From a virus (taxonomy: Duplodnaviria; Heunggongvirae; Uroviricota; Caudoviricetes): a DNA stretch of 25,422 nt. Within the stretch, counting starts at the first letter, position 1, and every line of letters starts with the position of its first letter. Where the stretch lies: the IMG/VR virus record IMGVR_UViG_2574180238_000002; one strand, given 5' to 3'. Below the pieces are notes generated by a model. That model saw only the letters and a program-made list of their open reading frames with translations. It did not search any database and had not been told where the DNA came from. Of the stretch, positions 709-20,799 are shown piece by piece. The position numbers and the translations under genes are program-made.

Positions 709-1485
709 TTACCATATCTGGCATGCGGTTTCGTTAAGAGGAACTCCGATCGCATTGCCAGCTTTTGTTTCATCAGGGTGTATCCATGCCATTTTCTTAT
801 CCAGATCGACCTGTGACCACTCAAGGTCTGTAACGTTGGAACGGCGAAGGCCTGTCGTGATTGCAAACATGACCACAGGGAAGAAGTGAGGAGCAATTTC
901 TGCAAACAGGCGCTTCGATTCCTCCTCTGTAAGCCATCTGATGCGTCCATTCTTAACGCGTGGTGTTGATATTTTGGGTGCCCTGTCAAGCCATCCCCAT
1001 TCAACAGCCATATTGAGAATGGCGCGAAGTATTGCCAGATGCCTCGTCTTCGTTCCTTTGCTTGCAAGCTTTGGTTTATACTCCGGCACCGGATTGCCAA
1101 GTCGCAAACACCTGTCCCGGCTCATCTCCCAGTTCAGGCGATGGCGGCGGTTTTCCATCCCATCTACCGCCTCCATTATTTTTTCTGTTGTTATGTCAGA
1201 GAGAATGGCTTCTCTGAAGTGCAACATCCAGAACGATATAATGCTCTTGTCATCATCAATGGACTTCTTATCCGATTTCTCACGCAGCCACCGTATGCAG
1301 GCTTCCTTGAATAGCTTTTTCGGTGATTCCCCGAGATTTTTTACTCTCCACGCTTCTGCTTTCAGACGATCGTGAAGTTCTTGCGCTTGCCTTTTGTCCG
1401 ATGTTTCAAGAGAGCGTCTAACTCTTGATCCATCTGGCGCGACGAAATCGCAGTGCCACGTGCCACCGCGTAGTTTGATTGACAT
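709..1485 (-). pseudogene. int: P22-family tyrosine integrase, C-terminally truncated by IS1
   Basis: 258 aa; N-terminal and core-binding region resemble lambdoid/P22-type Int (DKRQAQELHDRLKAEAWR...TGLRRSN). ORF stops inside the IS1 terminus at 709-713, so the catalytic H-x-x-R and Tyr region is missing. Strong RBS AGGAGG upstream of ATG at 1485. Confidence 0.8.
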
Positions 1486-4246: not shown

Positions 4247-4540
4247 TCAGTCATTACTGATAGCGCCATAGCGTGAGCGGTAATTACGCAGGCGCGGGTC
4301 AATTTCAGGGAAGTGGGTATATGTGGCTTTGCGGAATGGTCGGATTGATGTCTGGTAAATTCGCTCGCGTTCTTCTTTCTCTGCGAGCCATATACAATGG
4401 CGAAATTCCTTTTCCTCTTTCGTTTCCTGCGGTAGCGACATTATCCGGTCGTAGTTTTTTCTGAATTTATCCAGCACCTCCGATACGGAATTGCCGGAAC
4501 AGCGGCGCGGGTCATCCGCACTATACAGAGGCGCTGGCAT
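4247..4540 (-). CDS. hypothetical protein (uncertain)
   Basis: 97-aa ORF, charged composition, no clear SD; sits at the presumed deletion junction just upstream of the gp20-like gene. Confidence 0.3.
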   Translation of the reverse strand: MPAPLYSADDPRRCSGNSVSEVLDKFRKNYDRIMSLPQETKEEKEFRHCIWLAEKEERERIYQTSIRPFRKATYTHFPEIDPRLRNYRSRYGAISND

Positions 4541-4586
4541 TGGTGCTGGTATCGGATTGCTTGGCTCGTTGTTTTAAGGGGTAATC

Positions 4587-5993
4587 ATGGCTACTTGGCA
4601 AGGAACAAACGGCGGATTGTTGGCTGGTATCGGCGGCGTCAACTCAAACGCTCCGAGCGTAAATGACATCGGCAATACGCTTCAGCTTATCAGGCAGAAC
4701 AATGATATTGAGCGTTCAGGCGCTAACAATGTTGGACTGACGGCCTTGCAAGGTCTTTCAGGTATTGCGGGTGTTTTTCAGCAGGAAAAGCAGGCTCAGC
4801 GGCAGAAAGAATTTCAGCAGGCATACGCTAATGCTTATGCGTCTGGTGATCGCGGTGCTTTGCGTCAGTTGGCTACTCAATATCCAGACCAGATTGAATC
4901 CGTTCGTAAAGGCATGGGATTCATTGATGAAGACCAGCGTAATTCTATCGGTACATTAGCGGCTGGGGGGGGGGGTGGGGCATCGTCTCCAGAAGCAATG
5001 CAATCATGGCTGCAAAATAACGCCAAGGAACTGACTCGCGTCGGTGTTGACCCTAATAACGTTGCTCAGATGTATCAGCAGAATCCTTCAGGATTTGGTG
5101 AGTTTGTTGATCACCTTGGAATGGCTGCTCTTGGTCCGATTGATTACTTCAATGTTCAGGACAAGATGGCTGGTCGTGAGATTGATCGCGGAAAACTTGC
5201 AGAGACAATCCGCAGCAATCAGGCTGGTGAAGCACTTCAGGCGAGAGGGCAAAACCTTTCCTATCAGTCAGCAATGACTGGGCACAATATCGCAGCACAA
5301 CGCTTGGCCCTGGATCAGCAAGAGTTCGGGTTTAAGATGCAGCAAGCGCAGGAAAAGGCTCAGCAGTTGATTAGCGAAGCACCTAAGCTGTCAGTAAACA
5401 TGGAAAAAGGCATCGAGACGGCTGTAAACAATGCCACAGCATCATCAAACTCAGCCAATTCCATGAGTGCGCTTGCTCAACAGTTCAGAGCAGAAAAACC
5501 AACGACAGGTTTGTTCGGTAACGCACAGAACATGTTCGCAAAACTTACCGGAAGCGATACGACATTGCGTGATTTGCGCATTCGCCAAAATGCCCTTGTT
5601 AACAGTCAGGTTCTTAAATTCCTACCTCCCGGCCCAGCAACGGATAAAGACGTTGAGATCGTTCGACAGGGTGCGCCAACTGACATGGATAACCCTGAGA
5701 CGGTCGCAAGATGGCTTGATGCAATGGCAAACCTTGAGCGACGAAACGCGCAGTTTAATGAGTTTAAAGCTGAGTGGATGAGCGCGAATGGCAACCCTGG
5801 ACAATCGCGTAATGGCGGTCAGATATTGGGGTTGGATGTTAAAAAAGGTGAATCATTGGGGAGTGCCGTTAAGCGGTATATGTCATTGAATACTGACGCA
5901 GCGCCAGCACAAGATTCGATACCTTCAGGAGAACCACGGAATCAGGTTGGATCATATACCTCAAAATCAGGCATTCAATTTACGGTGGAATGA
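4587..5993 (+). CDS. P22 gp20-like ejection (DNA transfer) protein
   Basis: 468 aa with AAGGGG RBS. Size and position (before a ~610-aa protein, followed by an Mnt-like gene and tailspike) match the gp20-gp16 pair of P22-like phages. Assigned by synteny and size, not sequence recall. Confidence 0.7.
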
Positions 5994-7837
5994 TGAAAGT
6001 AACTGCAAACGGTAAGACATTTACCTTCCCTGATGGTACGAGCACGGAAGATATTGGATCTGCCATTGATGAGTATTTTGCTGGACAGTCTGTTCAGCAA
6101 CAAACTGTCAGCCAGGATAGCAATGAACCAGCACGTGAAGAACCATCATTGATGCAACAAGCTGGCGATTGGCTCACTGGTGGTCAAAGTGCAGGGCAAA
6201 TTGCTGAACAGGCTGGTCGTGGTCTGGTAAACATACCATTTGACGTATTGCAGGGTGGTGCAAGTCTGATTAATGCAATCAGCCAGGGGCTTGGTGGCCC
6301 AAAGGTTTTGGATGATGTTTATCGTCCAGTAGATCGACCAACAGACCCTTATGCGCAAGCTGGAGAAACAATTGGCGGGTATTTAGTTCCAGGAGCTGGA
6401 ACGGCAGGAAGCATGGCTATTGGATCACTGGCAGAGGCCGCAAATCAGAAAGGCGATTTCGCACAAAATGCAGCCAAAAATGCCGGAGTTAACCTTGCCG
6501 CTCAGGGTGTTCTTTCCGCAGCAGCAAAGGGAATAGAGCGTGGAATAACGGCTATAAAAGGTGATATTGCGCCAGAAGTGGCGAAGAAAATTGCCACATC
6601 AGAATCGATGGGCGTGACACCAATGACATCTGATGTTATCCCGCCGAAAAATGCTTTCACTCGTGGCCTTACTCAGGATGCCGAGGGTGCTTTGCTCGGG
6701 ACAGGCTCAAAGCGAGCGGAGCAATATGCAACGCGTAGTAAACTGGTAAGCAATTATTTTGACCGTTTTGGTGAGTATAACCCTGATGATGTGGTGAAAT
6801 CTCTGACCACCACGTTAAGGGGGAGGAAGGATGCCGCTGGCGCTGTTATCAATGACGTCACCAATAAAATGGGTAATGCCGCAGTTGATACCACAAATAC
6901 CATGAATGCTCTGAATACAGCGATCGCAAGACAGGAACGGCTTGGGACGTCTGCCAATCAAAGCCTGCTTACATCCTTGCGTAACCTACGTGAAGAATTA
7001 GCAAACCCTGCAACTGATTTGGATGTTACGTTTGATCTCTTGCGTCAGCACAGAACAGCATTTAGATCTAATGTTCAGGGAGATGCTATGGTCTTCCCCA
7101 ACCAGGCAAAAGCAGCTACCAATATGGTAGAGAATGCAATGTCAAAAGACCTTCGTAACGCAGTTGCTAAAAACCTCGGTGCATCAGACGCAGCAAAATA
7201 CCTTAAAGCAAATTCCGATTATGCAAACGTTTATAATAAGGTGCTTAATAAAAACATTGCTAACAAGCTCAACAAGGCAAGCAGTGAAGCCAGTCCTGAA
7301 CTTATAAATACCGTTGTATTAAGCAGAAAACCATCTGACGTGAAACGAATCTGGAGCGCACTGGATGATAAAGGGAAAGATGCTATGCGTGCAGCTTACG
7401 TCAGCAAAATAGCGGAAAAGGCCGGTGACTCTCCAGCCAAGTTCATCACTGAAGTTAATAAGCTGAAATCTCAGTCAGGCGGTGAAATTTACAACACTAT
7501 TTTTTCTGGAAAGCACATGAAAGAGCTTGATGCTCTTCATGAAGTTCTACAGCAAACAGCAAGGTCAGACACCGCAAATGTAGTAACTCAGACGGGGCAA
7601 TCGCAAGCCAACAGGATAAGGACGATTGGCGCAACTGCGACCCTTGGCGTATCAATGGGGCTTGAGGCTGGTTTTGGTGCAATGATGCGCTTGTATGAGT
7701 CCAAAGCAGCAAGGAATGCTCTCTTACGCCTGGCAAACACTAAAACTGGAACGCCAGCTTATGAAAGAGCGCTAAATAATGCTGCAAATGCGATACGCCC
7801 TATACTTTCAAGCCAAATTACAGCAGAACAGCAATAA
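5990..7837 (+). CDS. P22 gp16-like ejection (DNA transfer) protein
   Basis: 615 aa; ATGA overlap with the upstream gene; size matches P22 gp16 (~609 aa); synteny with mnt-like gene and tailspike. Confidence 0.7.
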
Positions 7838-7851: not shown

Positions 7852-8337
7852 CTACCTGATATTACTGCTACTGTTGCATGTTACCGTGTTTCCAAATCCT
7901 GAATTGCAGTTTGTATATGTGTCAACGCGTGTTGGGTAAGGTTGAGTTATAACAGGCTGGCGCGCTTTTTGCTCGATCGCTTGCATTGTGTTTACAGCCT
8001 GATAATTCAATAAAGCCTGCTGGAATGCTTGGCTTTGCGCTATTTGTTGGGCTTGCTCTTGGCTTTGTAATTGAACATAAAGATTTTGAAGCTCAAGTCT
8101 TGCCTGTGCGTCACTTATCTTACCTTCATCAACACCTTGCCCGAGCATCTTTGCGGCAAGGACATACAGCTTAGGTGTTGGTGCAGACGCCATGCGTGAG
8201 TCGTTCTTCACACTGGCATCAAGGCAATTAGCCATATCGCTAAGCTTTTGATAGCGTTGTTCGCAACTTGCTTGATAGTCACTTACTTTTGCGCATCCAA
8301 CCAGAAGAAGCGGGATAATTAACAGTGATTTTTTCAT
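7852..8337 (-). CDS. lipoprotein in the sieA-equivalent position
   Basis: ATG at 8337 with AAGGAG RBS; MKKSLLIIPLLLVGC is a signal peptide with lipobox; Gln-rich C-terminal half. Confidence 0.6.
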   Translation of the reverse strand: MKKSLLIIPLLLVGCAKVSDYQASCEQRYQKLSDMANCLDASVKNDSRMASAPTPKLYVLAAKMLGQGVDEGKISDAQARLELQNLYVQLQSQEQAQQIAQSQAFQQALLNYQAVNTMQAIEQKARQPVITQPYPTRVDTYTNCNSGFGNTVTCNSSSNIR

Positions 8338-8407
8338 ATGGTTAACTCTCCTTAGTTTTTCACAGGATATCATGAAGGCAATGCCATTTTAGCCGGAAAC
8401 TAGATTT

Positions 8408-8674
8408 CTATGTTTCCTTTTTATTATTGCTATACATGGTCTTAAGCGTTTCAAAAACCATTTTCTTAACCATATCAGATTGTTGTTCTGCCATACGCTC
8501 TGCATCGTCAATGTAAACTGATGCAGAGCTTTGTTTAGCCAATGATTCTTCAATCGCTGCAATTATCTCTGAGTTCAGCGACCTGTTATTCATCTTCGCG
8601 CGCTGTTTAATTTTCGCGTGGAGTTCATGCGGAAGTCTCAAGTGAAACTGCGCCTCGTCGTATTTGCTGTACAT
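8408..8674 (-). CDS. mnt: Mnt-like ribbon-helix-helix repressor
   Basis: 88 aa from ATG at 8674; aligns by eye with remembered P22 Mnt (..NGRS.NSE...DAER.A..QS..VKKMVF.TLK..Y). Confidence 0.7.
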   Translation of the reverse strand: MYSKYDEAQFHLRLPHELHAKIKQRAKMNNRSLNSEIIAAIEESLAKQSSASVYIDDAERMAEQQSDMVKKMVFETLKTMYSNNKKET

Positions 8675-8795
8675 CCTTGATGCCTCACCAGTTGGGTGGA
8701 ATGGCATCGTAACCTACTGGATAAATACTCAATAGTACCATTTCTGTATGCAATCACATCATGGTTGCATCATATCATTCGTCTGGAGCAATGAA

Positions 8796-10613
8796 ATGTC
8801 AGATATCACCGCAAATGTTGTGGTAAGCATGCCTTCTCAACTCTTCACTATGGCTCGTTCTTTTAAAGCTGTAGCCAATGGCAAAATTTATATCGGTAAA
8901 ATTGACACTGACCCGGTAAATCCTGAAAACCAGATTCAGGTTTATGTGGAGAACGAAGACGGCTCTCACGTTCCTGTATCGCAGCCAATCATCATTAACG
9001 CTGCCGGATATCCTGTATATAACGGACAGATTGCCAAATTCGTAACTGTGCAAGGCCATTCTATGGCTGTTTATGATGCATATGGGGCGCAGCAGTTCTA
9101 TTTTCCTAATGCGTTGAAGTGTTCCCCTGACCAGGGAATTATCAGGTTAAAAGAAGAAATTGCGAAAGATGATGGAGAGAAATATATCGGAATATGCCCT
9201 GACGTTTCTACACTCAGAACAATTGAGCCATCATTCGTCGGGCAAAATATAACTGTTCGTGGATACTACTCTGACACACCCGGGCTTGGGGGAGGAACGT
9301 TTATAGCCTTTTCCAGTTCTGAAGCTGACGATGGTGTGAATATTTTTGTTACCCCTGGCGGTAAGCGATGGAAGAGAGCAGGAAGCCACATCGATATTCC
9401 GGTAGAGAACGGTGGCATGATGACATCATGTACGGCTGAGCAAAACAGTGAAGCCTTTGAACGCCTGACTGCATGCCTTCCATATGAAGGAGGTACGCTC
9501 AGACTCAATGGATTTTACGGTATTAAGTATGGCGCTATCGTGCCTCCACGTGTCACGCTGGAGGGGTGCGGTATGGATTCCTGTGGATTAATTAAAACAG
9601 GTAACGATATTAAAACCGTTCCGGATCGCATGTGGCAGGGTGTACCACACAGCTTCTCCAAAGACTTTATTGTTGCGGTAGATATGGATAGTGACACATC
9701 AGGTGATTTAAGCGGGACACAAACAAGAAGCACCAGAATAATTGGATTGAGTATTCTAAATACTGCGCCCAATCCTTGTGATTACGGGATATATAGCGCT
9801 ATCAGTTACAATGTGCGCCTTCAGGACCTGTATATTCATAGGGTGAAAACCGGTTATCGCACTAGTGATAGTTGGTTGCAGACATGGGAAAACATTACTA
9901 TTCAGGATGTCGTTACTGGAGTTAAAATCGAAGCAGGTGGAACCACATATAATTTAAACAATATTTATGTGAAAACATGTTCAGGTGTTGCATATGATTT
10001 TAATAACATTACATATAGCAGCCTGACTTGTTTGGCTGCTGACTTCGTTAATGGTACTGGCTATAAATTTAAAGATTGTACTGGAGTGAATCTATCTGGA
10101 TGCGGAAGCGAAGAAGGCACTGGTAAAATATTTGATATAAATGGTAGTCGAATTAACGTAACTGCATTTAGAGGGGTTAATCATCATGATGGAGGAGTTG
10201 AAGCTGTATCTCTGGAATCGTGTTTCATCTCATTGGTTTCATCTCATTTTTCTAGTTACTCTGGAGTCTCATCTAGCAAATACATATATCTTAATAATGC
10301 AACTGCAAATTTTAATGGTACGGTAATTCCCGACAACACCACTGATTCTATTAGATGGGGTAGTGCGCAGAGCAGGATCAACAAGGTTGATTCAGGCGGC
10401 ACCTATAGTATAACCGGAAACTCATCATGGACTGCATTATGCAGACTTGAGTCAGGATATATAACGGTTCTATCAGTATCACCACCCACGGGAGATACAA
10501 CTAATTTCCCGTTTGGCACCAAGTGGGAATTGCTTGGTCAGGTTTATACCGGACCGTGGAAGTGGACATACGTATCAACTGGTGAATGGAAGGTATCCGC
10601 AACTACCACGTAA
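8796..10613 (+). CDS. tailspike with P22-type head-binding N-terminus and divergent receptor-binding domain
   Basis: [11 protein letters not shown]...[35 protein letters not shown]...[11 protein letters not shown] matches the remembered P22 gp9 N-terminal ~110 aa; the rest does not resemble P22 gp9. GGAG RBS. Confidence 0.85.
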
Positions 10614-10640
10614 AAAAAAGGGGCTTTCAGCCCCTTTTTA
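10612..10640. terminator. bidirectional rho-independent terminator
   Basis: aaaaaaaa-ggggct-ttc-agcccc-ttttta: perfect 6-bp GC-rich stem flanked by A-run and T-run, between convergent tailspike and acyltransferase genes. Confidence 0.65.
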
Positions 10641-10641
10641 T

Positions 10642-11685
10642 CTAATATCTGAATTTGTTTGATATCTTTTTCCCAATATCCATTGCTGGTTTTTCTATCG
10701 CAATAAATGATATCAGTCCAGCAATAAGTGATAGTGCTATGCATAAAACTTGATTTAAGTACAGGTTTATATCAGGTAATAACCTGAATGTTATCTGCTG
10801 TATTAAAAAGCCCCACAAGTAAACGCCATATGACACATCATGTTTTATTCTTACTGATTTTATTATTTTTGTTGTTGATAAATACACGAAAAATGTACAT
10901 GCGCAAAAGTAAAAAAGCATATGCTTGAGTGTTGGGTCTGACACAAAATTATATAATATTGCAAATCCTATTGGTGCATGTGGTGAAATGTATATTTTGT
11001 CCTTGTTTATAGCATACAATGCGCCAAGAGCAAAGCATGGAGCCATTAAAAACACATCTGCATTATCGTTATTTATAAAAATTAATTTGTTCCATCCCAA
11101 TACTGGAAGCGCTATTATTGATAAGCATATGATGCTAGGTATTATTCTTCCTCTGCTCTGAGTTATCATGTAGCATGCTAGGAGCACGACATAAGATGCA
11201 ACTTCATATGGTATTGTCCATAAGGAACCATTAACTGATCTTTTATATATATTTTCCTCAAAAACACCAGGAAGAAAAAATTGCATATCCAAATATGAGC
11301 TTTTAAATAGATAGCTGTACGTCAGTGTATCTTTTAAATAAGATGTCATTGAGTGCGTTGTAAGTAATGGTCCAACAATGAATGTCGCGAATAATAAAAC
11401 AAAAATGAATGCGGGGAATATTCTAAAAAATCTAGATGAAATAAAGTGTGGTATGTTGCGCGTTGTTAATAAACTATTAGTTACAAGCATTCCACTAATA
11501 AAGAAAAATATTTTTACAGCAATGGAACCAGTATATGTAAATGTGAAAACAGACTGAACCGGCTCCTGGGCTCCATCAGAATTTGCAAGATAATATGAAT
11601 GGGCAAATATTACAGAAATTGCACAAAAAATACGTATTAAGTCAAGGTTATTGTTATCCCTTTTTAGCGCATCTTTGACCAACAT
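10642..11685 (-). CDS. integral-membrane acyltransferase family 3 protein (O-antigen acetyltransferase-like)
   Basis: 347 aa from first ATG; multiple hydrophobic segments; N-terminal motif ...LDLIRIFCAISVIFAHS typical of acyltransferase-3/Oac-type enzymes; visibly AT-rich; sits where P22-like phages carry O-antigen conversion genes. Confidence 0.7.
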   Translation of the reverse strand: MLVKDALKRDNNNLDLIRIFCAISVIFAHSYYLANSDGAQEPVQSVFTFTYTGSIAVKIFFFISGMLVTNSLLTTRNIPHFISSRFFRIFPAFIFVLLFATFIVGPLLTTHSMTSYLKDTLTYSYLFKSSYLDMQFFLPGVFEENIYKRSVNGSLWTIPYEVASYVVLLACYMITQSRGRIIPSIICLSIIALPVLGWNKLIFINNDNADVFLMAPCFALGALYAINKDKIYISPHAPIGFAILYNFVSDPTLKHMLFYFCACTFFVYLSTTKIIKSVRIKHDVSYGVYLWGFLIQQITFRLLPDINLYLNQVLCIALSLIAGLISFIAIEKPAMDIGKKISNKFRY

Positions 11686-12075
11686 AAAAATCACCTAACT
11701 GTTTATTTTGAAGAGCATTGTATCATCAGATAGCCGCACTTTCACTCCCATCAGATCACCGTCAGAAATTATCATAAGCGCCAGTTCATCATGTGCAATT
11801 GCGTGCAAACAAAATATTCACTGCAGAGAGATTAAGTAGATTGATTCTACTGGGTTGGCATGAGACAAAACTGAGACACAGAAAGCTTTGCACTGGATTG
11901 CAAGGCTTTGTGCTCTCCTGTGGATGTGTGTCTACATGTTTGAAGATTGTTGTGCCGTATTTGTGACATACGCATGACAACATCATGCATCAACTTTCTG
12001 TTTGTGCCATCAACTATAGCTTAGTGAATGCGGTTAATGCTTGCTAAAACAGATAGTTATGATTGGTGCTACAGA

Positions 12076-12121
12076 TTCGTAATGCGAAGGTCGTAGGTTC
12101 GACTCCTATTATCGGCACCAT
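12076..12121 (+). other. partial tRNA-Thr 3' segment (anticodon loop to CCA): central att site of the tandem array
   Basis: ATTCGTAATGCGAAGGTCGTAGGTTCGACTCCTATTATCGGCACCA matches the 3' 46 nt of tRNA-Thr(CGU) as remembered; upstream bases do not form the tRNA 5' half, so this is not an intact gene. Confidence 0.7.
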
Positions 12122-12726
12122 CAAGAAAATCAATAACTTAGCTTAACTTCTCTAAGAAATTGTATCTTCTGTTATCACTTACAAACGCCTATACGTTGTT
12201 ATGGGCTTTGGTAGTGTAACACGTATGGGCGAGTAGTTCCCAGGCTCAACCTCGTAACAAGTTCCTTTGAAGCTGGAAGACGTGCCACCGTCTCTAAACC
12301 TTCTACCAAAACTCTTAGCAAGATGTTCCACACCTGGCGCGGTGTCCAATGATGCTACACGTCGTGAGACGTTGCAGAGGATAAACAGGCTAAATGATGG
12401 GAAGAGTTTTAAGTGCAATAGTGGATCAAAGCCCACCTCTTCAAAACCTAACTTGATCGGGAAAGAATCAAGCTCTAGCACGGTTTCGTCCACCGGAGTA
12501 CAACGGGTGCCTGATAAGAGAAGAACTGCTAAGACTTCATAGCTTTTGTGAAAAAGCCCTTTTTAGTGGATACGCCTACGGCGCTTATTTTTTGGTATAA
12601 CCATCAAAGGCGCTTTATGGCTCCTATTGTCTTGAAAATGTATCTTTACTTGTATTGTGTTTTATGCGTAGTCTCCCTGTGTAGTATGTAACTTGTTAAT
12701 TTTCATATGAATACAGAGGCAACACG

Positions 12727-12879
12727 ATGAAAAACATTGCAGCTATAAAACGTAATAACCGCAAGATTCACGCTCGTAAGTTCCTGTCTACGCCAGAAGG
12801 AAAAGCCTGGCTAGAGCGTAAACAGAGAGAGAACGAAGAAAGAAAACTCCTTAGTGAGTTGAAATGGCTTAAGGATTGA
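12727..12879 (+). CDS. small basic protein (50 aa), uncertain
   Basis: MKNIAAIKRNNRKIHARKFLSTPEGKAWLERKQRENEERKLLSELKWLKD; not in the ORF track (below its length cutoff); followed by a long hairpin. Confidence 0.3.
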   Translation: MKNIAAIKRNNRKIHARKFLSTPEGKAWLERKQRENEERKLLSELKWLKD

Positions 12880-13429
12880 ATCACCAGTAGGCGCATAACA
12901 CATCCAGCGATCAAAGATGTGTTTATGCGCCTGATAGTGAAATTATTAAAGTTTTTTAGTTAATGTAGCCATTGCATGAACGATGATCGCTAGTGAATCG
13001 ATTTTATCTCGAGGGGTAAAATAGATGAGGTATATGATGGTAACAATTACAGCTAAAGTAATTGTGGTTCTGCAGGTTTTTAAAATGGATAAGATAAAGC
13101 GCATAGATACCCCCTATTGATTTAACAACAATAAGGTATCATTTATTTTTTATTGCATGCAATGTGCAAATTTTCACATATAATAGCTTACTATTCACTT
13201 TGCATGGTGTCAACAAGATGATGTGTTGTTTTGTTTGATTTGTTCAAGATAATATTTCATTTTCTCATCTATATAACTTGTGTTTTAGATAATTTCACTA
13301 ATTGTAAAAGTTACGTATTGCTTAATAGCTGCCTTTTTATCTGAAATCGGCGCAAACGTGATCAATGTTTAACGCGAAGATCAGCGGCGTCAGGTCCACG
13401 CAGCGACAATTCTCAAATATCAGGAGGCA

Positions 13430-13981
13430 TTACGCTTCCTGCTCTTTCTTGATACGTTGCACCGTCTGTGTGCTGACACTGAAATCTTTTGCTACGCTCC
13501 GAATTGATCCACCATTCGCGAGAGCGGCAACAATTCCCGCTCGATCAATTGCTTTTCCATTACCACGTTTTGCTATACGTCCAGCGGCCTTAGCTGCGGC
13601 GATCCCCTCACGTTGCCGCTCAAGCATCATTTCACGTTCCATTTGTGCCACTGCTGCAAGCACTGTGAGCATCATATTCCCTGCGGGAGAGTTCTTCCCT
13701 GTCTTAAAGTCTTCTTTATGGAAATGCACAGACACGCCGCGCTCTGTTAATTGCTCAACCGTTGCCAGAAGGTCGGCTGTATTACGGCAAAGGCGATCAA
13801 TACTGTGAACATGCACAACATCACCTTCCCGCACATAGTTCATCATTGCCTCAAACTGTGGGCGCTGAGTGTTCTTGCCTGACGCTTTATCTTCAAAGAC
13901 TTTATCAAGAGTTACTCCAGCTAATTGACGGTCTGTGTTTTGTTGCACAGTCGATACCCTAATGTATCCAATATTAGCCAT
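13430..13981 (-). CDS. serine recombinase (resolvase/invertase family)
   Basis: MANIGYIRVSTVQQ... with the catalytic Ser context, DRL.R motif and C-terminal HTH (GGSIRSVAKDFSVSTQTVQRIKK); ~183 aa, typical of small resolvases/invertases; RBS 9 nt upstream of ATG at 13981. Confidence 0.8.
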   Translation of the reverse strand: MANIGYIRVSTVQQNTDRQLAGVTLDKVFEDKASGKNTQRPQFEAMMNYVREGDVVHVHSIDRLCRNTADLLATVEQLTERGVSVHFHKEDFKTGKNSPAGNMMLTVLAAVAQMEREMMLERQREGIAAAKAAGRIAKRGNGKAIDRAGIVAALANGGSIRSVAKDFSVSTQTVQRIKKEQEA

Positions 13982-14507
13982 TTTCATTTTCCTTCTGTGT
14001 TGATTTGTGTGTAGTGATTATTGATCGTGTTGATTAGGTGTGTAAAGGACTTTTTTCACTACGAAATTCGAAGGTTTTTAGTGTGGTGATTTAGCCTGCT
14101 TTATCACTACACGTCTTGCATGAGAATCATGTAGTTACATTTTGGTAAAATTAGCAAGCTATTAAATAGTGTGTTTATTTTGAAAAAATAATTTTTTGTT
14201 GCATTAAAGGAAACTTGTTCGACAAATAATAGATTGATTTTTAATCAACAATTTCTGATAGTGCTCTGTAAGCCGTATTACACAAGGCTTTGCGAAAGTG
14301 ATGTAAAAGTGAAGAAAGCTAACATTGCACTTTTTAAGCTACTTTTCATTGGATTTTTACGTAGGAATTACACAGGGATTAATCATCAATTACATTGAAT
14401 TTAAGCCTGTTTTAGATGTTTAATTTTGGTAGCAAGAAACACTTTTAGAAGATCATTGCACAGATGTTATGTGATAAATGGATGTAACGGTAGGTCACTG
14501 TGAACTA

Positions 14508-14644
14508 CCCCCACAGAATTCTGTTATCCTTAACTTTTAAAGAAATATGCACCCTAACAGAAAACTGTTACCCCAACCCTAACAGAATTATGTTAGATAC
14601 CCCCACAGAAAACTGTTAGCCACCCCTACAGAATTTTGTTACCT
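14508..14644. repeat. array of five ~23-bp iterons, each a TAACAG-N4-CTGTTA palindrome preceded by a C-run
   Basis: Cores at 14513-14526, 14557-14570, 14582-14595, 14605-14618, 14628-14641; four of the five start 23 bp apart. Confidence 0.65.
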
Positions 14645-14756
14645 ATTAGATCAACTATCAAACTACAATTAAATTATCTTTTATAAATTCTTTTATCTTT
14701 AAAGAATAATTAAGTGATACCCGTTAGGGAGTCTTCGACTATCCCTTAATCTATTG

Positions 14757-15033
14757 GCATTCGCCAGAACCTTGCACAAGTTAGAGTGTTAGTCGTTAGA
14801 CTGCTTGTCATAACACATAGTTTTTGTTTGTTGATGTTAGTTAGTAGATCTATGTTCGCTAATGCCGCTCACAACGAATATGTAATCTACTATGTGCAAA
14901 TAGCCTACGGCTTGCGTAAGGCTAAATAGTCTATGCGCTGTGCGCTTCAATAGTTCCATTGATGAGGCTTACGCCAATCTAACGATCATCAATCATCTAA
15001 AATAAATTTCTTGTGCAATGTTCTGGCGAATGC
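14757..15033. repeat. 24-bp inverted-repeat pair flanking a 229-bp segment
   Basis: gcattcgccagaaccttgcacaag (14757-14780) versus reverse complement of cttgtgcaatgttctggcgaatgc (15010-15033): 23/24 identity. Confidence 0.55.
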
Positions 15034-15339
15034 AATTAGAGTAGCGTTACCCCTTTGGGGATGCTAACGCATAACTATAGATCAACCATCAAACAGACAA
15101 AAAAGAAAAATATGGTTTAAAGATGTTAGGTAGTAGATGAGATTCTACCGCTTAAATCAAGCCGTAGGCGAGCTAAACAGCCTCTACATAAGGGAATGTA
15201 TTGTATTTATCAAAACCTCGTCAGAGGGCGTTTTAGAGCGTTTTAGAGAATAAGGAAGAATAGGAGCACTCTTAAGAGCACGAATTGCTAAGAAAAATTA
15301 TAACACACTGAAAATGATCAATATTTTTATGGCTAGGGG

Positions 15340-15368
15340 TTGACAAAAGCTTTTAGTCGTGGTAAAGT
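15340..15368 (+). promoter_or_regulatory. candidate sigma70 promoter for the 15492-17800 operon
   Basis: TTGACA (15340-15345), 17-bp spacer, TAAAGT (15363-15368). Confidence 0.4.
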
Positions 15369-15491
15369 AATATTAGGGACAGAAAACATTCTTATCCTCT
15401 AAGTAATTAAACCAATGCACCGCACTTTGAAGCCCAACAAGGCTTGCAAGGTGTTTTTTCTTTTAACCAAATAGAATAAGGAGGCTAATTA

Positions 15492-15668
15492 ATGAAATAT
15501 TTTACTCCACAGGATGTAGTTGAAGCCTGGAAACGTGGTGAGATTAATCGTTTTAAAGTAAGGATGAACAGGAACACAGCGCGACGCTGTGGTTATCCAG
15601 AGCGTGAAAAATGCTTTGACGATGCACTAAAAATTATTGATGAACTGCGTAAGGCAGAGAAAGAATAA
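15492..15668 (+). CDS. small protein (58 aa), unknown function
   Basis: Strong SD AAGGAGG upstream of ATG; MKYFTPQDVVEAWKRGEINRFKV...; first gene of a co-directional operon. Confidence 0.5.
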   Translation: MKYFTPQDVVEAWKRGEINRFKVRMNRNTARRCGYPEREKCFDDALKIIDELRKAEKE

Positions 15669-15689
15669 TAACAGGAGAAGGAGAAAACT

Positions 15690-15860
15690 ATGAGCGAAAC
15701 TACAGAAAAGAAAAGACAACCACGCACTTGCTTTCATATTCCTGATGAAGTATTTCAGGTGTTGTTTAAAGAAGCCAGAAGTAAACGTATCACTGTTACA
15801 GATTACATTCTTGATATGTTGAAAAGAGAGGCTGAAACACTCTCAAACAAAAGCAAGTGA
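15690..15860 (+). CDS. small ribbon-helix-helix-like DNA-binding protein (56 aa)
   Basis: SD AGGAGAAGGAG; sequence RTCFHIPDEVFQVLFKEARSKRITVTDYILDMLKRE fits a beta-strand then two helices as in CopG/Arc/ParG-type RHH proteins (by-eye secondary-structure pattern). Confidence 0.5.
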   Translation: MSETTEKKRQPRTCFHIPDEVFQVLFKEARSKRITVTDYILDMLKREAETLSNKSK

Positions 15861-15913
15861 TTTTTATCACCATAGTAGCGCCGTAGAGCGTGATTACATC
15901 AAGGAGATTTTTA

Positions 15914-16483
15914 ATGATTAATGAAGAACAATTTGTAAAAGTTCCTATGTGGATTCTAAAAATAAGCCAAGTAAACGGACATAAATTTACAGATAGTGCT
16001 AAAAACCTTTACTGCTATCTGAGAGGGTTTGATCGTGCATTTCCCTCTTACGCTAAGATAGGCGATGTTTTTGGCATAACACCAAGAGCAGCAGAAGAAA
16101 GGGTTAAGAAATTGCTCGAAATGGGATTAATTATAAAAGATGCACGACCAGGAAGCTCTAACCTTTATCGAGTGCTTGATATTCCAAAAGGAGAATCATC
16201 ACTACCTGATCCTTCTGAGAAAGAAGACGAATCTAATGAAATATTGAATGTTTCCGAAATCATCGTTGAAGAAGAAACACAAGAGCCAGAGTTCCCTGAG
16301 CGGCCCGAAATTTTTACTTGGCTTCTTTCCCTTGATAAGAAGAAACCACCGCACGAAGAAACAGAAGATTTTGTAAAACGAGCATTAGATTCAAAGAATA
16401 TCTATCTTTGTGAAAATGATTTTGACTCTTTGATAATTGATCTCAAAAGTGAGAGCACAATATATGATTCACTACCCTTCTAA
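15914..16483 (+). CDS. predicted winged-helix DNA-binding protein with acidic C-terminal tail
   Basis: ATG at 15914 with AAGGAG RBS; N-terminal ~90 aa has a wHTH-like pattern (..AKIGDVFGITPRAAEERVKKLLEMGLI..); C-terminal half highly acidic. Confidence 0.55.
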   Translation: MINEEQFVKVPMWILKISQVNGHKFTDSAKNLYCYLRGFDRAFPSYAKIGDVFGITPRAAEERVKKLLEMGLIIKDARPGSSNLYRVLDIPKGESSLPDPSEKEDESNEILNVSEIIVEEETQEPEFPERPEIFTWLLSLDKKKPPHEETEDFVKRALDSKNIYLCENDFDSLIIDLKSESTIYDSLPF

Positions 16484-16492
16484 GGAGAATAA

Positions 16493-16750
16493 ATGACTTA
16501 TAACATCACTATAGGAAACAAAACTATTGAAATAACTGAAAGCGGATACAACATTTTAAAAGCTATTTTGGACATAGAGTTTTCACCACCGACAGTGGTT
16601 AGCTTTTGTAGTTTAGGCGGCTACAGCGCACAACACGTAAATCATTTTACATCGTTCGGTGTGCTGGATTATGAAGGGATTAACAGCACTACATTTCGTC
16701 TTTTGAAATTAAACAAAGATTTTGAATTGTTTCTCACAAACAATCAATAA
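16493..16750 (+). CDS. hypothetical protein (85 aa)
   Basis: AAGGAG RBS; same-strand operon context. Confidence 0.5.
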   Translation: MTYNITIGNKTIEITESGYNILKAILDIEFSPPTVVSFCSLGGYSAQHVNHFTSFGVLDYEGINSTTFRLLKLNKDFELFLTNNQ

Positions 16751-16847
16751 CAACAGATCGGGCAATACATATGGCAAATGCATTTATGGCGATATTCATC
16801 GTAACAATGGCGTCCAGTTTTTATAATCCACATAAAAAGAGGGAAAA

Positions 16848-17231
16848 ATGGGAAGAAAGAAAAAGAACAACTTAAAACGTATTGAAAAAAACAGTAATTT
16901 CAATTCAAAAAGACAACGTCCACCGACACACACCAATAACGAAATTCCAGGGGAAGAGATAATCTTTATTCTTGAAACAGAATCCCCTGAATTAAGTGAT
17001 GAAGAATTAGAAATAATCCAATCAATGCCAGGCGTTTACTTTCGCCCAAGAACAAGAAAACAAACTATCATTTCTGATGGCACTCTGAAACGTTGGCAGC
17101 TTTTAGGGTTTAGCTCCTATCATCATTTTTTGGGATTTAACGCTTTCAATAATTGTGTAGGTGGTGCATCGGAAGTCGATCTGATGGCTCATTTAGAAGA
17201 TACATTAGCTTCTAACAAACGTTCTAACTAA
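16848..17231 (+). CDS. hypothetical protein with basic N-terminus and acidic middle (127 aa)
   Basis: RBS AGAGGG; N-terminal Lys/Arg-rich stretch followed by an acidic segment. Confidence 0.5.
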   Translation: MGRKKKNNLKRIEKNSNFNSKRQRPPTHTNNEIPGEEIIFILETESPELSDEELEIIQSMPGVYFRPRTRKQTIISDGTLKRWQLLGFSSYHHFLGFNAFNNCVGGASEVDLMAHLEDTLASNKRSN

Positions 17232-17246
17232 TAAAATGATGGGTGT

Positions 17247-17492
17247 ATGTATAAGCGCCCAATGAAAATATTCAAAAAAGGAAAAATAATGATTGGCTAT
17301 ATTCAAGAAACACAATTATTTCAGATGATCCTGTCTGATGCAAAAAACTATGCAGAGTTAATTCGGCTGGCAAAAGAAACAGAAGACTACGAAGCATTAG
17401 AGCGTTACCGTGATGAAGTGCTGACGCTCAAGACACCTTTTAACATCGTATTGAATATGATTAATGATGCATTACAAGGAGAATACGCATAA
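17247..17492 (+). CDS. hypothetical protein (81 aa; alternative start at 17289)
   Basis: ORF with better RBS (AAGGA) before the internal Met at 17289; stop overlaps the next start (ATAATG). Confidence 0.45.
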   Translation: MYKRPMKIFKKGKIMIGYIQETQLFQMILSDAKNYAELIRLAKETEDYEALERYRDEVLTLKTPFNIVLNMINDALQGEYA

Positions 17493-17800
17493 TGGAAGAA
17501 GATATTAGCAATGCAATGGAACAACTTTTAGAACTGACTATCTCACTACAAACAAGAATAAATCAAGCCTATTCAGATTTATGCGATTACACGCTCTCTC
17601 AATGCGTTATTAGCTTAATGAAGGTGAATGTAAGCCTTGACGATTTTATCTCTCTTGGGAGCGATTTAGAGCTATCAGAGGACGATGCAAAACAGTGTAA
17701 TCAAATCATCACAGACATCGCCACCACGTTAAAGGTTGCAAGTGAAGAGATTCAGCAATTAGTAGATGATTTAGCAAAAAGTGCTATTTTCTCTAAATGA
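17492..17800 (+). CDS. strongly acidic small protein (102 aa)
   Basis: AAGGAG RBS; about 19 Asp/Glu versus about 6 Lys/Arg by count. Confidence 0.5.
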   Translation: MEEDISNAMEQLLELTISLQTRINQAYSDLCDYTLSQCVISLMKVNVSLDDFISLGSDLELSEDDAKQCNQIITDIATTLKVASEEIQQLVDDLAKSAIFSK

Positions 17801-18642
17801 TAATGAAAATTATTTGCATTTATAATGATTTTGTTATATAATAATTTTAGGGGTAGATAAAAAGATTTTAGTTGGTGTTAATCCTTCTACTGTCATAAAT
17901 CCCTGCATATGGAAGGTGATAGCCTCAAAGGTTGAGTGGCATTAACCTCTAACAAATATTACCTTCCATCTCTCAAGAAGTTTTAGAATAATCATAACTC
18001 CCTCTTTGATTGTTGATTGTTTCTACGTTGTGTTGATGAATGTTGTTAGGCATTGTGCTTAATTTTGATAAAAGCGGGTAGGTGTTATCTCCTTGCCCTT
18101 CCCGCTCTTATTTTTCATCTATGCTTATCCTAAAGCTCCTTATTTTGTCAGAAAACATTAAAGAGCCTTACACTGATAGTTATATTTTATAACTATTTAC
18201 TAACATCATTAAACTATTATTTAATGACAGAAGTTAGTAACAGAATAATCTATTAAGTTGTTGTCAAAAACAATCATCTGCATAGCGTTAGCCGCAAGCA
18301 GAGAGAGTTTAGCTAAGAATGGTGCAATAAACTTTGGAAATATTGATAGCAAAACGGGTTTTATAGAATGCGGATCTATAAGCTTTGGTTGTAAAAACGA
18401 TTTTCTGAAACGGTAGATTACTGTTGGTGTAGTTAATCATTATTAAAAATTTAATCTGTGAGTAGATTGGAATAGTGATTCCTTAAAATCTGACTGGTGC
18501 ATCCACACCATGAAAGATAGCGGTTGGCCACCGCGCCCCGAATAGATATTCCTGATTGATTCCGCATGTTTTCCTAAGAGCATGTTTTCAGGAGTATCTA
18601 TTCACCCTTTAAGCATATCATCAAGTATATTTAAAAAGTGTA

Positions 18643-18671
18643 TTTGCTGATATGTTTAATCCTCTTATAGT
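18643..18671 (+). promoter_or_regulatory. candidate sigma70 promoter for the 18785-23366 operon
   Basis: TTTGCT (18643-18648), 17-bp spacer, TATAGT (18666-18671); weak -35, good -10. Confidence 0.3.
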
Positions 18672-18784
18672 TTAACTTATCAATTATGTAATTGCCCGCA
18701 CGTTAAAGCCCCTTTGCTGGTCAGAATTAACCTCTTACGGCATTGGGGCTTTTTATTTGTCTGGCACTAACAGGAACATTATTT

Positions 18785-18982
18785 ATGAAACAAGAAATGA
18801 TTATCAGCAAAGACGGGGAAACGATGATTGTTAGTGATGAAAACCTCATTAAGGTTGCCGCACTGTTGGGAGTTACTCCCGAAAGTCTTCGTTCTACCAC
18901 TGCTCAATTATTTAAATCGGCTGATGCGGTTAGTCTTGCTGATGCCCTTAAATCTAAAATTAAACAACTGAAAGGAAAATAA
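18785..18982 (+). CDS. hypothetical protein (65 aa)
   Basis: AGGA RBS before ATG at 18785; first gene of the second operon. Confidence 0.45.
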   Translation: MKQEMIISKDGETMIVSDENLIKVAALLGVTPESLRSTTAQLFKSADAVSLADALKSKIKQLKGK

Positions 18983-18986
18983 TCTT

Positions 18987-19370
18987 ATGGCTAACCCATA
19001 TGGAAAATTAAAAGCAGTGAATGCGGATAACTCCCGTTCACGCTGTAAGGTAGTAGCTTACGCTGCTGATCCAGTGCTGCAAGATCGCCTCGTCAAACTG
19101 GCTTCACCTCTCACTGACGATCTTATTGTCGGGGCTTTGCTGAAAGCCGATGGCACCAAAGCAACAACCGCATCTGATATTGCTCACGTAGTAGTTGAAC
19201 CGGCTTATGAAGGACAGGAAAGCGTAGTGGTTGCACATCCTACTTTCGTTATTCTGGCTGAAGATGGGATTGAATTTAACAGCATGGAAAAGGCAAGTGT
19301 TATTGCAAAACTGCAATCTCTCGGCTTTGTAATTGCTGGTTATGAAGAACTTGCGATCCCTACGACTTAA
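18987..19370 (+). CDS. hypothetical protein (127 aa)
   Basis: AAGGA RBS; tightly spaced with neighbours (4-14 nt intergenic). Confidence 0.55.
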   Translation: MANPYGKLKAVNADNSRSRCKVVAYAADPVLQDRLVKLASPLTDDLIVGALLKADGTKATTASDIAHVVVEPAYEGQESVVVAHPTFVILAEDGIEFNSMEKASVIAKLQSLGFVIAGYEELAIPTT

Positions 19371-19384
19371 CAAGGAAAATAATA

Positions 19385-20765: not shown

Positions 20766-20799
20766 TAAACAACAATCATAATACAGGGAAACAATTAGC

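What the first reader, a model, noticed from the sequence alone, without database searches (positions are those of the whole stretch)
10642..11685. AT-rich membrane acyltransferase next to att: likely O-antigen modifying cargo
Composition differs visibly from the neighbouring phage genes, the protein is polytopic with acyltransferase-3 type N-terminal motifs, and it occupies the tailspike-to-att slot where P22-like phages carry gtr or oac genes.
Basis: partly seen in the sequence, partly recalled or inferred. Interest (0 to 1): 0.4.

Follow-up and report, generated by a model that had tools for sequence, protein, structure and literature searches.

The report
Prophage O-antigen acetyltransferase gene beside thrW
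This is an intact gene for a ten-helix membrane acyltransferase, paired with a phage tailspike gene at the end of a decayed P22-like prophage in E. coli; it most likely acetylates the surface sugar that the tailspike recognises, which is a well-known phage trick and makes this an ordinary, untested new example.

Summary
Window 10642-11685 (- strand) is an intact 347-codon ORF with a good ribosome-binding site. Its GC is 32.5% (GC3 27.9%), against 42.7% in the adjacent tailspike gene. It matches Pfam Acyl_transf_3 (E 1e-24), keeps the family's core motifs, and folds as a 10-helix TmAT protein.

It lies tail-to-tail with a P22-type tailspike gene, separated only by a bidirectional terminator. 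It is 389 bp from a 46-nt 3' fragment of tRNA-Thr thrW, which is attR.

New findings:
- The prophage is a dead remnant of about 11.4 kb. IS1 truncates int, and the immunity, replication, lysis and head genes are gone.
- The tailspike, the acyltransferase and 230 bp upstream form a cassette that is 98.5-99.6% identical in Sf6-like prophages at argW, and at least its tailspike 3' part, acyltransferase and upstream stretch recur in a phiV10-like prophage. There it fills the slot of the experimentally proven phiV10 Oac.
- The protein is only 27% identical to Sf6 Oac.

Best explanation: a stand-alone AT3 O-acetyltransferase that masks the tailspike's glycan receptor, probably the O-antigen. The acceptor and the activity are untested.

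Verdict: a new member of a known kind, of low to moderate interest.

The parts
10642..11685 (-). Stand-alone AT3 (Acyl_transf_3) membrane acyltransferase gene, 347 aa. The protein is identical to WP_032227730.1.
11686..11916 (-). 5' untranslated and promoter region that travels with the gene. It has a Shine-Dalgarno AGGTGA at 11696-11691 and two sigma-70-like candidates at 11745-11717 and 11797-11768.
   Evidence: The cassette's identity with other prophages ends at 11916, or 11896 in L022. SD. The promoter-like sites are not more numerous than in shuffles, so they are candidates only.
10615..10639 (.). Bidirectional rho-independent terminator hairpin. It fills the 28-bp gap between the convergent tailspike and acyltransferase genes.
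   Evidence: Folds at -15.7 kcal/mol on both strands, z -4.8 and -3.9, with U-runs on both sides. Sequence.
8796..10613 (+). P22-type tailspike, 605 aa from M17 of the listed ORF: an N-terminal head-binding domain plus a beta-helix receptor-binding domain. It is the cassette partner of the acyltransferase.
   Evidence: Head_binding E 8e-65. Tailspike PHROGs. Called as 605 aa in other assemblies. The receptor-binding domain is 56% identical to a tailspike of Salmonella phage STML-13-1.
11917..12074 (.). Phage arm of the attachment site. It belongs to the integration module, not to the tailspike-acyltransferase cassette.
   Evidence: Window 11863-12143 is 94.7% identical to the attP region upstream of int in phage HK75. 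Argument from position.
12075..12120 (+). attR core: the 46-nt 3' end of tRNA-Thr (thrW), not a complete tRNA gene.
   Evidence: Prophage-free E. coli chromosomes match from 12075 on, inside their annotated tRNA-Thr next to proA. ARAGORN finds no whole tRNA. Sequence.
709..1485 (-). Truncated P22-type integrase, cut by IS1 (transposase ORF 195-698). This is the left end of the remnant as far as it is visible in the window.
   Evidence: Only positions 2-77 of the 172-position Phage_integrase catalytic profile are present. IS1 transposase E 2e-78.
4247..7837 (.). Deletion junction of the remnant. The early-left gene abc2 (4247-4540, -) directly abuts the late ejection genes gp20 (4587-5993) and gp16 (5990-7837).
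   Evidence: Pfam Anti-RecBCD_p2 and Inj_translocase. PHROGs 917 and 770. ORF list.

Best explanation
The gene encodes a stand-alone ('AT3-only') transmembrane acyltransferase of the Acyl_transf_3 / TmAT type.

Inferred mechanism, taken from the family:
- Cytoplasmic acyl-CoA, most probably acetyl-CoA, enters a pore formed by the 10-helix bundle. The pore is lined by R18, H29 and R85/R88.
- The acyl group is presented at the periplasmic face and transferred to a hydroxyl of a glycan during its periplasmic maturation.

The acceptor is most likely the O-antigen repeat that the neighbouring tailspike binds. In that case a lysogen carries an O-acetylated, antigenically altered O-antigen that this tailspike, and phages with the same receptor-binding domain, can no longer use. 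That amounts to seroconversion plus superinfection exclusion, as with Sf6 Oac and phiV10 Oac.

The gene is a moron-type transcription unit. It runs opposite to the late operon, has its own upstream region and shares a bidirectional terminator.

It moves together with the tailspike gene as a cassette among Lederbergvirus-like (P22/Sf6) and Uetakevirus-like (phiV10) prophages. In this window the cassette sits at the attR (thrW) end of a prophage that has lost int function and all lytic genes, so it is now a fixed chromosomal trait.

Shown: family, fold, motifs, topology, position, cassette mobility. Inferred: acetyl as the acyl group, O-antigen as the acceptor, expression, and the exclusion phenotype.
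For: Family and architecture:
- PF01757 scores 87.6 bits with no second domain.
- phrog_3333 'O-acetyltransferase', E 9e-37.
- 27% identity to Sf6 Oac over the full length, E 1e-23.

Catalytic signature, kept and invariant across 72 homologues:
- R18-x10-H29, FFFISG 60-65 and R85xxR88.
- These correspond to the R/K-X10-H, FFXISG and RXXR motifs shown to be essential in OafA, OafB and Oac (PMC7448272, PMC3467182).
- NGSLWT 152-157 and SYG 285-287 match the Oac critical motifs GS138-139, WT141-142 and SYG274-276.

Fold and topology:
- AF2 pLDDT 94.9.
- 10 TM helices, N-in and C-in, with K/R 17 inside and 5 outside.

Context:
- The gene is convergent with a P22-type tailspike, with a hairpin terminator between them.
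- It is 389 bp from the thrW att core.

Coupling to the tailspike:
- Tailspike + acyltransferase + 230 bp upstream is 98.5-99.6% identical in argW Sf6-like prophages; L022 holds the tailspike 3' part (from window 9693), the acyltransferase and the upstream stretch before the contig ends. The genes flanking the cassette are different or much more diverged.
- In L022 the cassette fills the tailspike-oac-lysis slot of phiV10, whose Oac is annotated as acetylating the host O-antigen and giving superinfection immunity (PMC9558356).
- The 50-55% homologues P0004, P0005 and P0006 are likewise placed beside the tailspike position in three prophage types: convergent with a called tailspike for P0004 and P0006, next to an uncalled gap there for P0005.
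- A 41% Klebsiella homologue sits in the tail-fibre region of a Mu-like prophage.

Against: - No biochemical or genetic data exist for this protein or for any homologue above 30% identity.
- AT3 enzymes also acylate ECA (WecH), osmoregulated periplasmic glucans (MdoC, succinyl), PNAG and capsules (PMC9558356), so the family alone does not fix the acceptor or the acyl group.
- Some residues critical in Sf6 Oac are not conserved: R75 is F87 here, GR269-270 is KH, and P283 is L.
- The promoter candidates are no better than chance, and expression from the remnant is unknown.
- More distant homologues in Serratia and E. fergusonii are not in prophages.
- The tailspike's receptor is not identified. 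Its best PHROG is labelled 'colanic acid degradation', so the receptor could be a non-O-antigen polysaccharide.
Confidence: 0.7

Rival explanations
1. It is a functional AT3 acyltransferase, but its acceptor is another Wzy-dependent or periplasmic glycan rather than the LPS O-antigen. Candidates are a group 1/4 capsule, colanic acid, ECA, the LPS core or osmoregulated glucans. The acyl group might also not be acetyl.
For: The AT3 family covers ECA (WecH), OPG succinylation (MdoC), PNAG and capsules (PMC9558356). The tailspike's top PHROG is annotated 'colanic acid degradation activity' (phrog_8280, E 1e-106). P22-like phages can target capsules, and CUS-3 at argW carries the K1 capsule acetyltransferase neuO in an analogous place (own knowledge; neuO is cited in PMC9558356).
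Against: All characterised phage-borne AT3-only enzymes sitting next to podovirus tailspikes (Sf6 Oac, phiV10 Oac) act on the O-antigen (PMC9558356). The PHROG label belongs to a broad beta-helix family. E. coli already has chromosomal enzymes for ECA and colanic acid acetylation (WecH; wcaB and wcaF are seen).
Confidence: 0.15
2. The gene is an intact but idle relic in this strain. It is not transcribed (for example, H-NS-silenced AT-rich DNA in a dead prophage), or the present host O-antigen is not its acceptor, so it has no phenotype here.
For: The prophage is defunct: IS1 cuts int and most genes are deleted. There is no promoter signal above chance. At 32.5% GC the DNA is typical of xenogeneically silenced DNA (the silencing itself is inference). 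The window allele differs from the common allele (seen on 107 contigs) by S149R.
Against: The ORF is full length and stop-free, as in every other copy examined. Position 149 is variable among homologues. The SD sequence, the terminator and the whole 230-bp upstream region are retained. The tailspike and acyltransferase survived a decay process that removed about 30 kb of other phage genes.
Confidence: 0.12
3. The low GC is only the amino-acid bias of a hydrophobic protein, and the gene is an ordinary phage gene rather than horizontally acquired cargo.
For: Membrane proteins rich in F, I, L, Y, N and K are encoded by AT-rich codons, and GRAVY is +0.63.
Against: GC3, which is largely free of amino-acid constraint, is 27.9% here. 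It is 36.5% in the tailspike and 37-53% in the other prophage genes. The gene is absent from most P22-like prophages and present in only 1 of 5426 complete E. coli genomes. It recurs in unrelated backbones.
Confidence: 0.03

Closest known systems
Oac (OacA) of Shigella flexneri phage Sf6, the AT3-only O-antigen O-acetyltransferase
   Same: Both are stand-alone AT3 proteins of about 340 aa with 10 TM helices. The two align over their full length (27% identity, E 1e-23). Shared residues: R-x10-H, FFxISG, R73/R76 (here R85/R88), FP, NGSLWT and SYG. In both cases the gene is convergent with the tailspike of a P22-like phage and followed by a terminator. In the argW copies of this cassette the order int-AT-tailspike is exactly that of Sf6.
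   Different: Identity is only 27%, so this is not an orthologue. Oac R75, G269-R270 and P283 are replaced. In the window the integration module is P22/HK75-like at thrW, with attP between the acyltransferase and int, whereas Sf6 at argW has attP beyond int. The acceptor sugar is unknown.
Oac of E. coli O157:H7 phage phiV10 (Uetakevirus)
   Same: A copy of this cassette (L022: tailspike 3' part, acyltransferase, upstream stretch) and a 50% homologue (L006) occupy the very slot of phiV10 oac (tailspike, then oac convergent, then the lysis cassette) in prophages 89-98% identical to phiV10 elsewhere. phiV10 Oac is experimentally linked to O157 O-antigen acetylation and superinfection immunity (annotation; PMC9558356).
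   Different: Sequence similarity is marginal and limited to the N-terminal motif (31% over 65 aa, E 0.001). It is a different AT3 lineage with a different tailspike receptor-binding domain.
OafA / OafB (GtrC family II) of Salmonella, the AT3-SGNH O-antigen acetyltransferases
   Same: They share the AT3 domain and its motifs, and the same proposed pore mechanism for acetyl-CoA (PMC7448272, PMC9833829). OafB of prophage BTP1 protects against the BTP1 tailspike (PMC4413052, PMC9558356).
   Different: Those proteins carry an 11th helix and a periplasmic SGNH domain that performs the final transfer. The window protein has neither: it is 347 aa with a single Pfam domain.
gtrABC glucosylation operon of phage P22
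   Same: It occupies the same genomic slot (tailspike to attP at thrW) and has the same biological logic, namely modifying the O-antigen receptor in the lysogen (own knowledge; PMC7685785 for gtr in E. coli prophages).
   Different: The chemistry differs completely: three genes transfer glucose through Und-P-Glc, and the operon is phase-variable through Dam/OxyR. Here there is one gene, and only one GATC in the upstream region.
HGSNAT and GWT1, solved TmAT-superfamily structures
   Different: Sequence identity is about 10%. They are eukaryotic proteins with different acceptors and no detectable sequence match.

Membership tests
Acyltransferase-3 (Pfam PF01757 / InterPro IPR002656) | Profile match above the curated gathering score across the whole domain. 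| tested here: met
   87.6 bits against a cut-off of 31, residues 12-324 on profile positions 2-318 of 326.
Acyltransferase-3 (Pfam PF01757 / InterPro IPR002656) | R/K-X10-H motif in TMH1. The His is invariant in all 31 characterised enzymes (PMC7448272). | tested here: met
   R18 and H29. R18 is invariant and H29 is present in at least 90% of 72 homologues.
Acyltransferase-3 (Pfam PF01757 / InterPro IPR002656) | FFXISG motif and RXXR motif. | tested here: met
   F60-F61-F62-I63-S64-G65 and R85-F-F-R88, all invariant among the homologues.
Acyltransferase-3 (Pfam PF01757 / InterPro IPR002656) | [quoted passage not shown] | tested here: met
   The AF2 model has 10 long helices and a 44-residue loop at 109-152. 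K/R count is 17 inside and 5 outside. This is prediction only; no experimental topology exists.
TmAT superfamily fold | Structural similarity to HGSNAT and GWT1 around the acyl-CoA pore. | tested here: met
AT3-only (stand-alone) architecture, as opposed to AT3-SGNH | No 11th helix and no periplasmic SGNH domain. | tested here: met
   347 aa, with a single Pfam family reported. The model ends after helix 10.
Oac-type O-antigen O-acetyltransferase (function) | Adds O-acetyl to a defined O-antigen sugar and changes serotype or phage sensitivity. | not testable with these tools
   This needs LPS NMR/MS, serology or adsorption assays. Only context supports it.
Oac-type O-antigen O-acetyltransferase (function) | Conservation of the residues shown to be critical in Sf6 Oac (R73, R75, R76, SG52-53, FP78-79, GS138-139, WT141-142, GR269-270, SYG274-276, FPV282-284; PMC3467182). 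| tested here: inconclusive
   Conserved: R73, R76, SG, FP, GS, WT, SYG and F282. Not conserved: R75 (F87 here), G269-R270 (K-H here), P283 and V284 (L and I here).
Orthologue of a named Oac (Sf6 Oac, phiV10 Oac) | High full-length sequence identity. | tested here: not met
   27% to Sf6 Oac. Only a 65-aa N-terminal match to phiV10 Oac. No NCBIfam equivalog.
Lysogenic-conversion moron at the tailspike/att end of P22-like prophages | Lies between the tailspike and the attachment site, is transcribed against the late operon, and has atypical composition and its own terminator. | tested here: met
   Positions. GC3 27.9%. Terminator. A separate promoter was not demonstrated.

The most novel reading that the evidence does not exclude
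The tailspike receptor-binding domain and this AT3 gene form one portable 'recognise-and-mask' cassette of about 3.1 kb. It crosses phage genera (P22/Sf6-like Lederbergviruses at thrW and argW, phiV10-like Uetakeviruses) at about 99% identity. In this strain it has been kept by selection after the rest of the prophage decayed, so the host has domesticated it as a fixed O-antigen variant and phage-defence determinant. It may create an unrecognised O-acetylated subtype of a known serogroup; the only complete genome carrying it has an O107/O117-family cluster.
Probability: 0.3. Interest if true: 0.45.

Novelty: new member of a known kind. Interest (0 to 1): 0.22.

Why it matters
If it is active, the gene adds an O-acyl decoration that genotype-based O-typing from wzx/wzy cannot see. 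Such a decoration can change antibody recognition and block phages that use this tailspike type, which matters for serotyping, glycoconjugate vaccines and the choice of therapeutic phages.

The cassette behaviour is also useful practically. A tailspike receptor-binding domain and its masking enzyme that move together give a paired reagent for identifying the glycan concerned.

The principle has been established since Sf6 Oac and phiV10 Oac, and the gene is already annotated in public databases as 'acyltransferase family protein'. The gain would therefore be one more enzyme and acceptor pair, not a new concept.

Tried and rejected
- NCBIfam scan of the protein: no family, so no curated name.
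- BFVD viral structures: one unnamed 637-aa hit only.
- The afdb50 library was unavailable.
- ARAGORN found no complete tRNA in the window. The att site had to be found by comparison with prophage-free chromosomes.
- Rfam at a permissive threshold over 10000-13500: only sub-threshold hits on the terminator hairpin.
- The promoter scan found fewer sites than in shuffles (4 against 7.5), so no promoter claim is made.
- Phase-variation signals: a single GATC upstream and no repeat tract were seen, so a gtr-like Dam/OxyR switch or a neuO-like repeat switch is not supported (sequence).
- Identifying the acceptor through the host O-serogroup: only one complete genome (VE-T9) carries the cassette, and it has an O107/O117-family cluster. 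The matching Wzy allele is on at least 1000 contigs, so the look-up tools could not show whether the more than 200 draft assemblies with the cassette share that O-type. The association remains untested.
- phiV10 Oac as a possible orthologue: rejected.
- Kapi1, an E. coli argW phage that modifies the O-antigen: no AT3 homologue was found among the phage records, and its modifying gene is unidentified (PMC8787464).
- The Casjens and Grose 2016 paper on P22-like prophages could not be read.
- dN/dS across cassette copies: there are too few differences, 1-4 codons.

Full report
**1. The observation**

The ORF list shows one long ORF on the minus strand at 10642..11694 (350 aa from a GTG). It is preceded by AGGTGA at a spacing of 5 nt, and the upstream GTG lies inside that Shine-Dalgarno sequence. 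The 347-aa model at 10642-11685 is therefore the right one, and it is the length annotated in public assemblies.

The composition contrast is real. The gene has GC 32.5% and GC3 27.9%. The tailspike has 42.7% and 36.5%, and the remaining prophage genes are 42-50% GC. Because third-position GC is also depressed, the amino-acid bias of a membrane protein cannot be the whole cause.

**2. What the protein is**

- Pfam gives a single family, Acyl_transf_3 (PF01757). The score is 87.6 bits against a cut-off of 31, E 1.1e-24, covering residues 12-324.
- PHROGs gives phrog_3333 'O-acetyltransferase' (E 9e-37). NCBIfam has no model for it.
- An alignment with Sf6 Oac and 11 homologues, and a second with 72 homologues, show the family signature to be invariant or nearly so: R18-x10-H29, F60-F-F-I-S-G65, R85-x-x-R88, N152-G-S-L-W-T157, S285-Y-G287 and E331.
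- These are the motifs shown by mutagenesis to be required in OafA/OafB (R/K-X10-H, RXXR; PMC7448272) and in Sf6 Oac (R73/R76, SG52-53, FP78-79, GS138-139, WT141-142, SYG274-276; PMC3467182).
- Three Oac-critical positions are not kept: R75 is F here, G269-R270 is K-H, and P283 is L.
- AlphaFold2 with the 72-sequence alignment gives a confident model (pLDDT 94.9, pTM 0.92) with ten long helices and a 44-residue loop between helices 3 and 4.
- With N and C termini placed inside, the loops carry 17 K/R on the cytoplasmic side and 5 on the periplasmic side. This matches the experimentally mapped topology of Oac cited in PMC9833829.
- No solved structure matches by sequence.
- There is no SGNH domain or eleventh helix, so this is an 'AT3-only' enzyme like Oac and unlike OafA, OafB or OatA.

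**3. Where it sits**

- Immediately upstream on the plus strand are P22-type ejection proteins gp20 and gp16 (4587-7837).
- Next come a small lipoprotein gene (7852-8373, minus strand), an Mnt/Arc repressor (8408-8707, minus strand) and a tailspike with the P22 head-binding domain (8796-10613; Head_binding E 8e-65).
- The tailspike and the acyltransferase converge. The 28-bp gap between them is a GC-rich hairpin flanked by A- and T-runs. It folds at -15.7 kcal/mol on both strands (z -4.8 and -3.9), which makes it a bidirectional terminator.
- On the other side, E. coli chromosomes without a prophage match the window from 12075 onward, and that point lies inside their tRNA-Thr gene next to proA.
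- The window holds only the last 46 nt of thrW (12075-12120), and ARAGORN finds no complete tRNA. This is attR of a thrW-integrating, P22-type element, 389 bp from the acyltransferase start.
- The stretch 11863-12143 is 94.7% identical to the attP region in front of int in siphovirus HK75. The att arm therefore belongs to the integration module, not to the acyltransferase.

**4. The prophage is a wreck**

- At the left end, an IS1 transposase (195-698) abuts an integrase ORF (709-1485) that retains only the first 77 of the 172 positions of the catalytic-domain profile.
- After xis, ead and abc2 (the last ending at 4247 on the minus strand), the sequence jumps straight to gp20 at 4587.
- Immunity, replication, lysis, packaging, head and tail-hub genes are all missing.
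- The element is thus an immobile remnant of about 11.4 kb whose right third (tailspike, acyltransferase, attR) is intact.
- The window is identical to a contig from E. coli 1-176-05_S1_C3-type assemblies (GCA_000627945.1; L012, 100% over 9 kb). The protein is WP_032227730.1, annotated only as 'acyltransferase family protein'.

**5. Comparative evidence for what it does**

The gene is rare. Only 1 of 5426 complete E. coli genomes has it (VE-T9, 99.7% identity). A one-residue variant (S149 in place of R149) is indexed in 217 blocks of the assembly collection.

In most of those assemblies it lies in Sf6-like prophages at argW, in the order argW-int-AT-tailspike. That is exactly the Sf6 order int-oac-tailspike, because Sf6's attP lies beyond int. 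Some of these prophages are complete, with coat, portal and tail genes (L018).

Nucleotide identity to the window is 98.5-99.6% from the start of the tailspike to window position 11916. It then stops abruptly, 230 bp upstream of the acyltransferase start. Neighbouring genes are only 67-94% identical or are different genes.

A copy of the cassette, visible from window 9693 to 11896 before the contig ends, also occurs in a prophage whose lysis cassette is 89% identical to phiV10 (L022). There it sits in the phiV10 arrangement: tailspike, convergent oac, then holin, endolysin and spanin. phiV10's own oac is annotated as acetylating the host O-antigen and functioning in superinfection immunity (PMC9558356). 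A sister prophage (L006) keeps the phiV10 tailspike N-terminus but carries another receptor-binding domain paired with a 50%-identical acyltransferase.

More distant relatives show the same pattern:
- The 55% (P0004) and 53% (P0005, Salmonella Veneziana) homologues lie between int and the tailspike position (a called tailspike for P0004, an uncalled gap for P0005) in two other argW prophage types.
- A 41% Klebsiella homologue lies among the tail-fibre genes of a Mu-like prophage.
- Only the Serratia and E. fergusonii relatives examined are outside prophages.

An acyltransferase that is swapped together with a receptor-binding domain, repeatedly and across phage genera, is best explained if it acts on the glycan that domain recognises. 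[quoted passage not shown]

**6. Mechanism**

The following is inferred from the family and not shown here.
- Acyl-CoA from the cytoplasm enters a transient pore in the helix bundle. Its 3'-phosphate is held by the TMH1 and RXXR arginines (here R18 and R85/R88).
- The thioester is presented near the TMH1 histidine (H29) at the periplasmic face.
- The acyl group is transferred to the acceptor. In AT3-only enzymes this happens without an SGNH partner (PMC9833829, PMC7448272, PMC12423673).
- The likely acceptor is the O-antigen, and the likely result is an O-acetylated O-antigen that the cognate tailspike cannot bind or cleave, as for Sf6 and BTP1 (PMC9558356, PMC4413052).

Confidence by claim:
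- An AT3/TmAT acyltransferase: about 0.97.
- Acts on the tailspike's receptor glycan: about 0.8.
- That glycan is the O-antigen and the group is acetyl: about 0.7.

**7. What stays open**

- The acceptor is unidentified. The receptor-binding domain's nearest relative is a tailspike of Salmonella phage STML-13-1 (56% identity). Its best PHROG is labelled colanic-acid degrading. Neither fixes a receptor.
- The single complete genome with the cassette, VE-T9, has an O107/O117-family O-antigen cluster. This is one data point, and I could not test the association in the draft assemblies.
- No promoter stands out above chance. No phase-variation signature is visible, with one GATC and no repeat tract.
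- Whether the gene is expressed from the remnant is unknown.

**8. Comparison and verdict**

The gene works like Sf6 Oac and phiV10 Oac and shares their genomic logic. It is not an orthologue of either: 27% identity to Sf6 Oac and marginal similarity to phiV10 Oac. It meets every testable defining feature of the AT3 family and of the AT3-only architecture.

It is therefore a new, uncharacterised member of a well-known kind, already present in public databases under a generic name.

Interest is low to moderate. The most useful by-product is the clear cassette behaviour of the tailspike and acyltransferase across phage genera.

Noticed in passing
window 1-1485: An IS1 transposase ORF (195-698, +) abuts and truncates the P22-type integrase (709-1485, -). 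Only the first 77 of 172 catalytic-domain profile positions remain, so the element cannot excise.
   Followed up: partly
window 4247-4587: The early-left gene abc2 (anti-RecBCD) is followed directly by the late ejection gene gp20. About 30 kb of a normal P22-like genome (immunity, replication, lysis, head, tail hub) is deleted. The same junction is present in the sister assemblies L011 and L012.
   Followed up: partly
window 7852-8373 (-): This ORF matches phrog_6067 (unknown function, E 2e-110). It probably starts at M13 with a lipoprotein signal (MKKSLLIIPLLLVGC). It lies between gp16 and mnt, where P22 carries sieA, so it may be another moron or exclusion gene.
   Followed up: no
window 12121-24885: A second integrative island sits in tandem at thrW. 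A second partial thrW repeat (24861-24885, with the last 19 nt exact) lies just beyond a 454-aa tyrosine integrase (23447-24811, -). The island is low in GC (0.30-0.37) and mostly hypothetical genes, plus a serine recombinase (13430-13987) and a Dit-like protein (22689-23366). It resembles the K-12 CP4-6 layout (own knowledge).
   Followed up: partly
window 11863-12143: The att arm and core are 94.7% identical to the attP region of siphovirus HK75, and 90-95% identical to mEpX2, HK446, HK542 and mEp043. The thrW integration module is therefore shared between P22-like podoviruses and lambdoid siphoviruses. About 1460 of 5426 complete E. coli genomes contain this stretch.
   Followed up: partly
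L001 and L029 (E. coli VE-T9, NZ_AP027963.1): The only complete E. coli genome with the cassette also carries it in a decayed prophage (IS30 and IS3 fragments upstream of the ejection genes) at argW. That strain has an O107/O117-family O-antigen cluster and a wzzB pseudogene.
   Followed up: partly
L006, L007 and L022, compared with L030 (phiV10): In phiV10-like prophages the tailspike N-terminus and lysis genes are conserved (88-98%). The receptor-binding domain plus the convergent AT3 gene is replaced as one block, by three different pairs in phiV10, L006 and L022.
   Followed up: yes
L026 (Serratia plymuthica 4Rx13): Two paralogous AT3 genes (353 and 356 aa) alternate with convergent genes of about 290-307 aa of unknown function in a non-prophage chromosomal locus. 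This may be a different, host-owned use of this AT3 lineage.
   Followed up: no
window 8748-8795: The mechanical ORF for the tailspike starts at 8748, but the head-binding domain begins at residue 17 and other assemblies aa. The real start is the ATG at 8796.
   Followed up: yes
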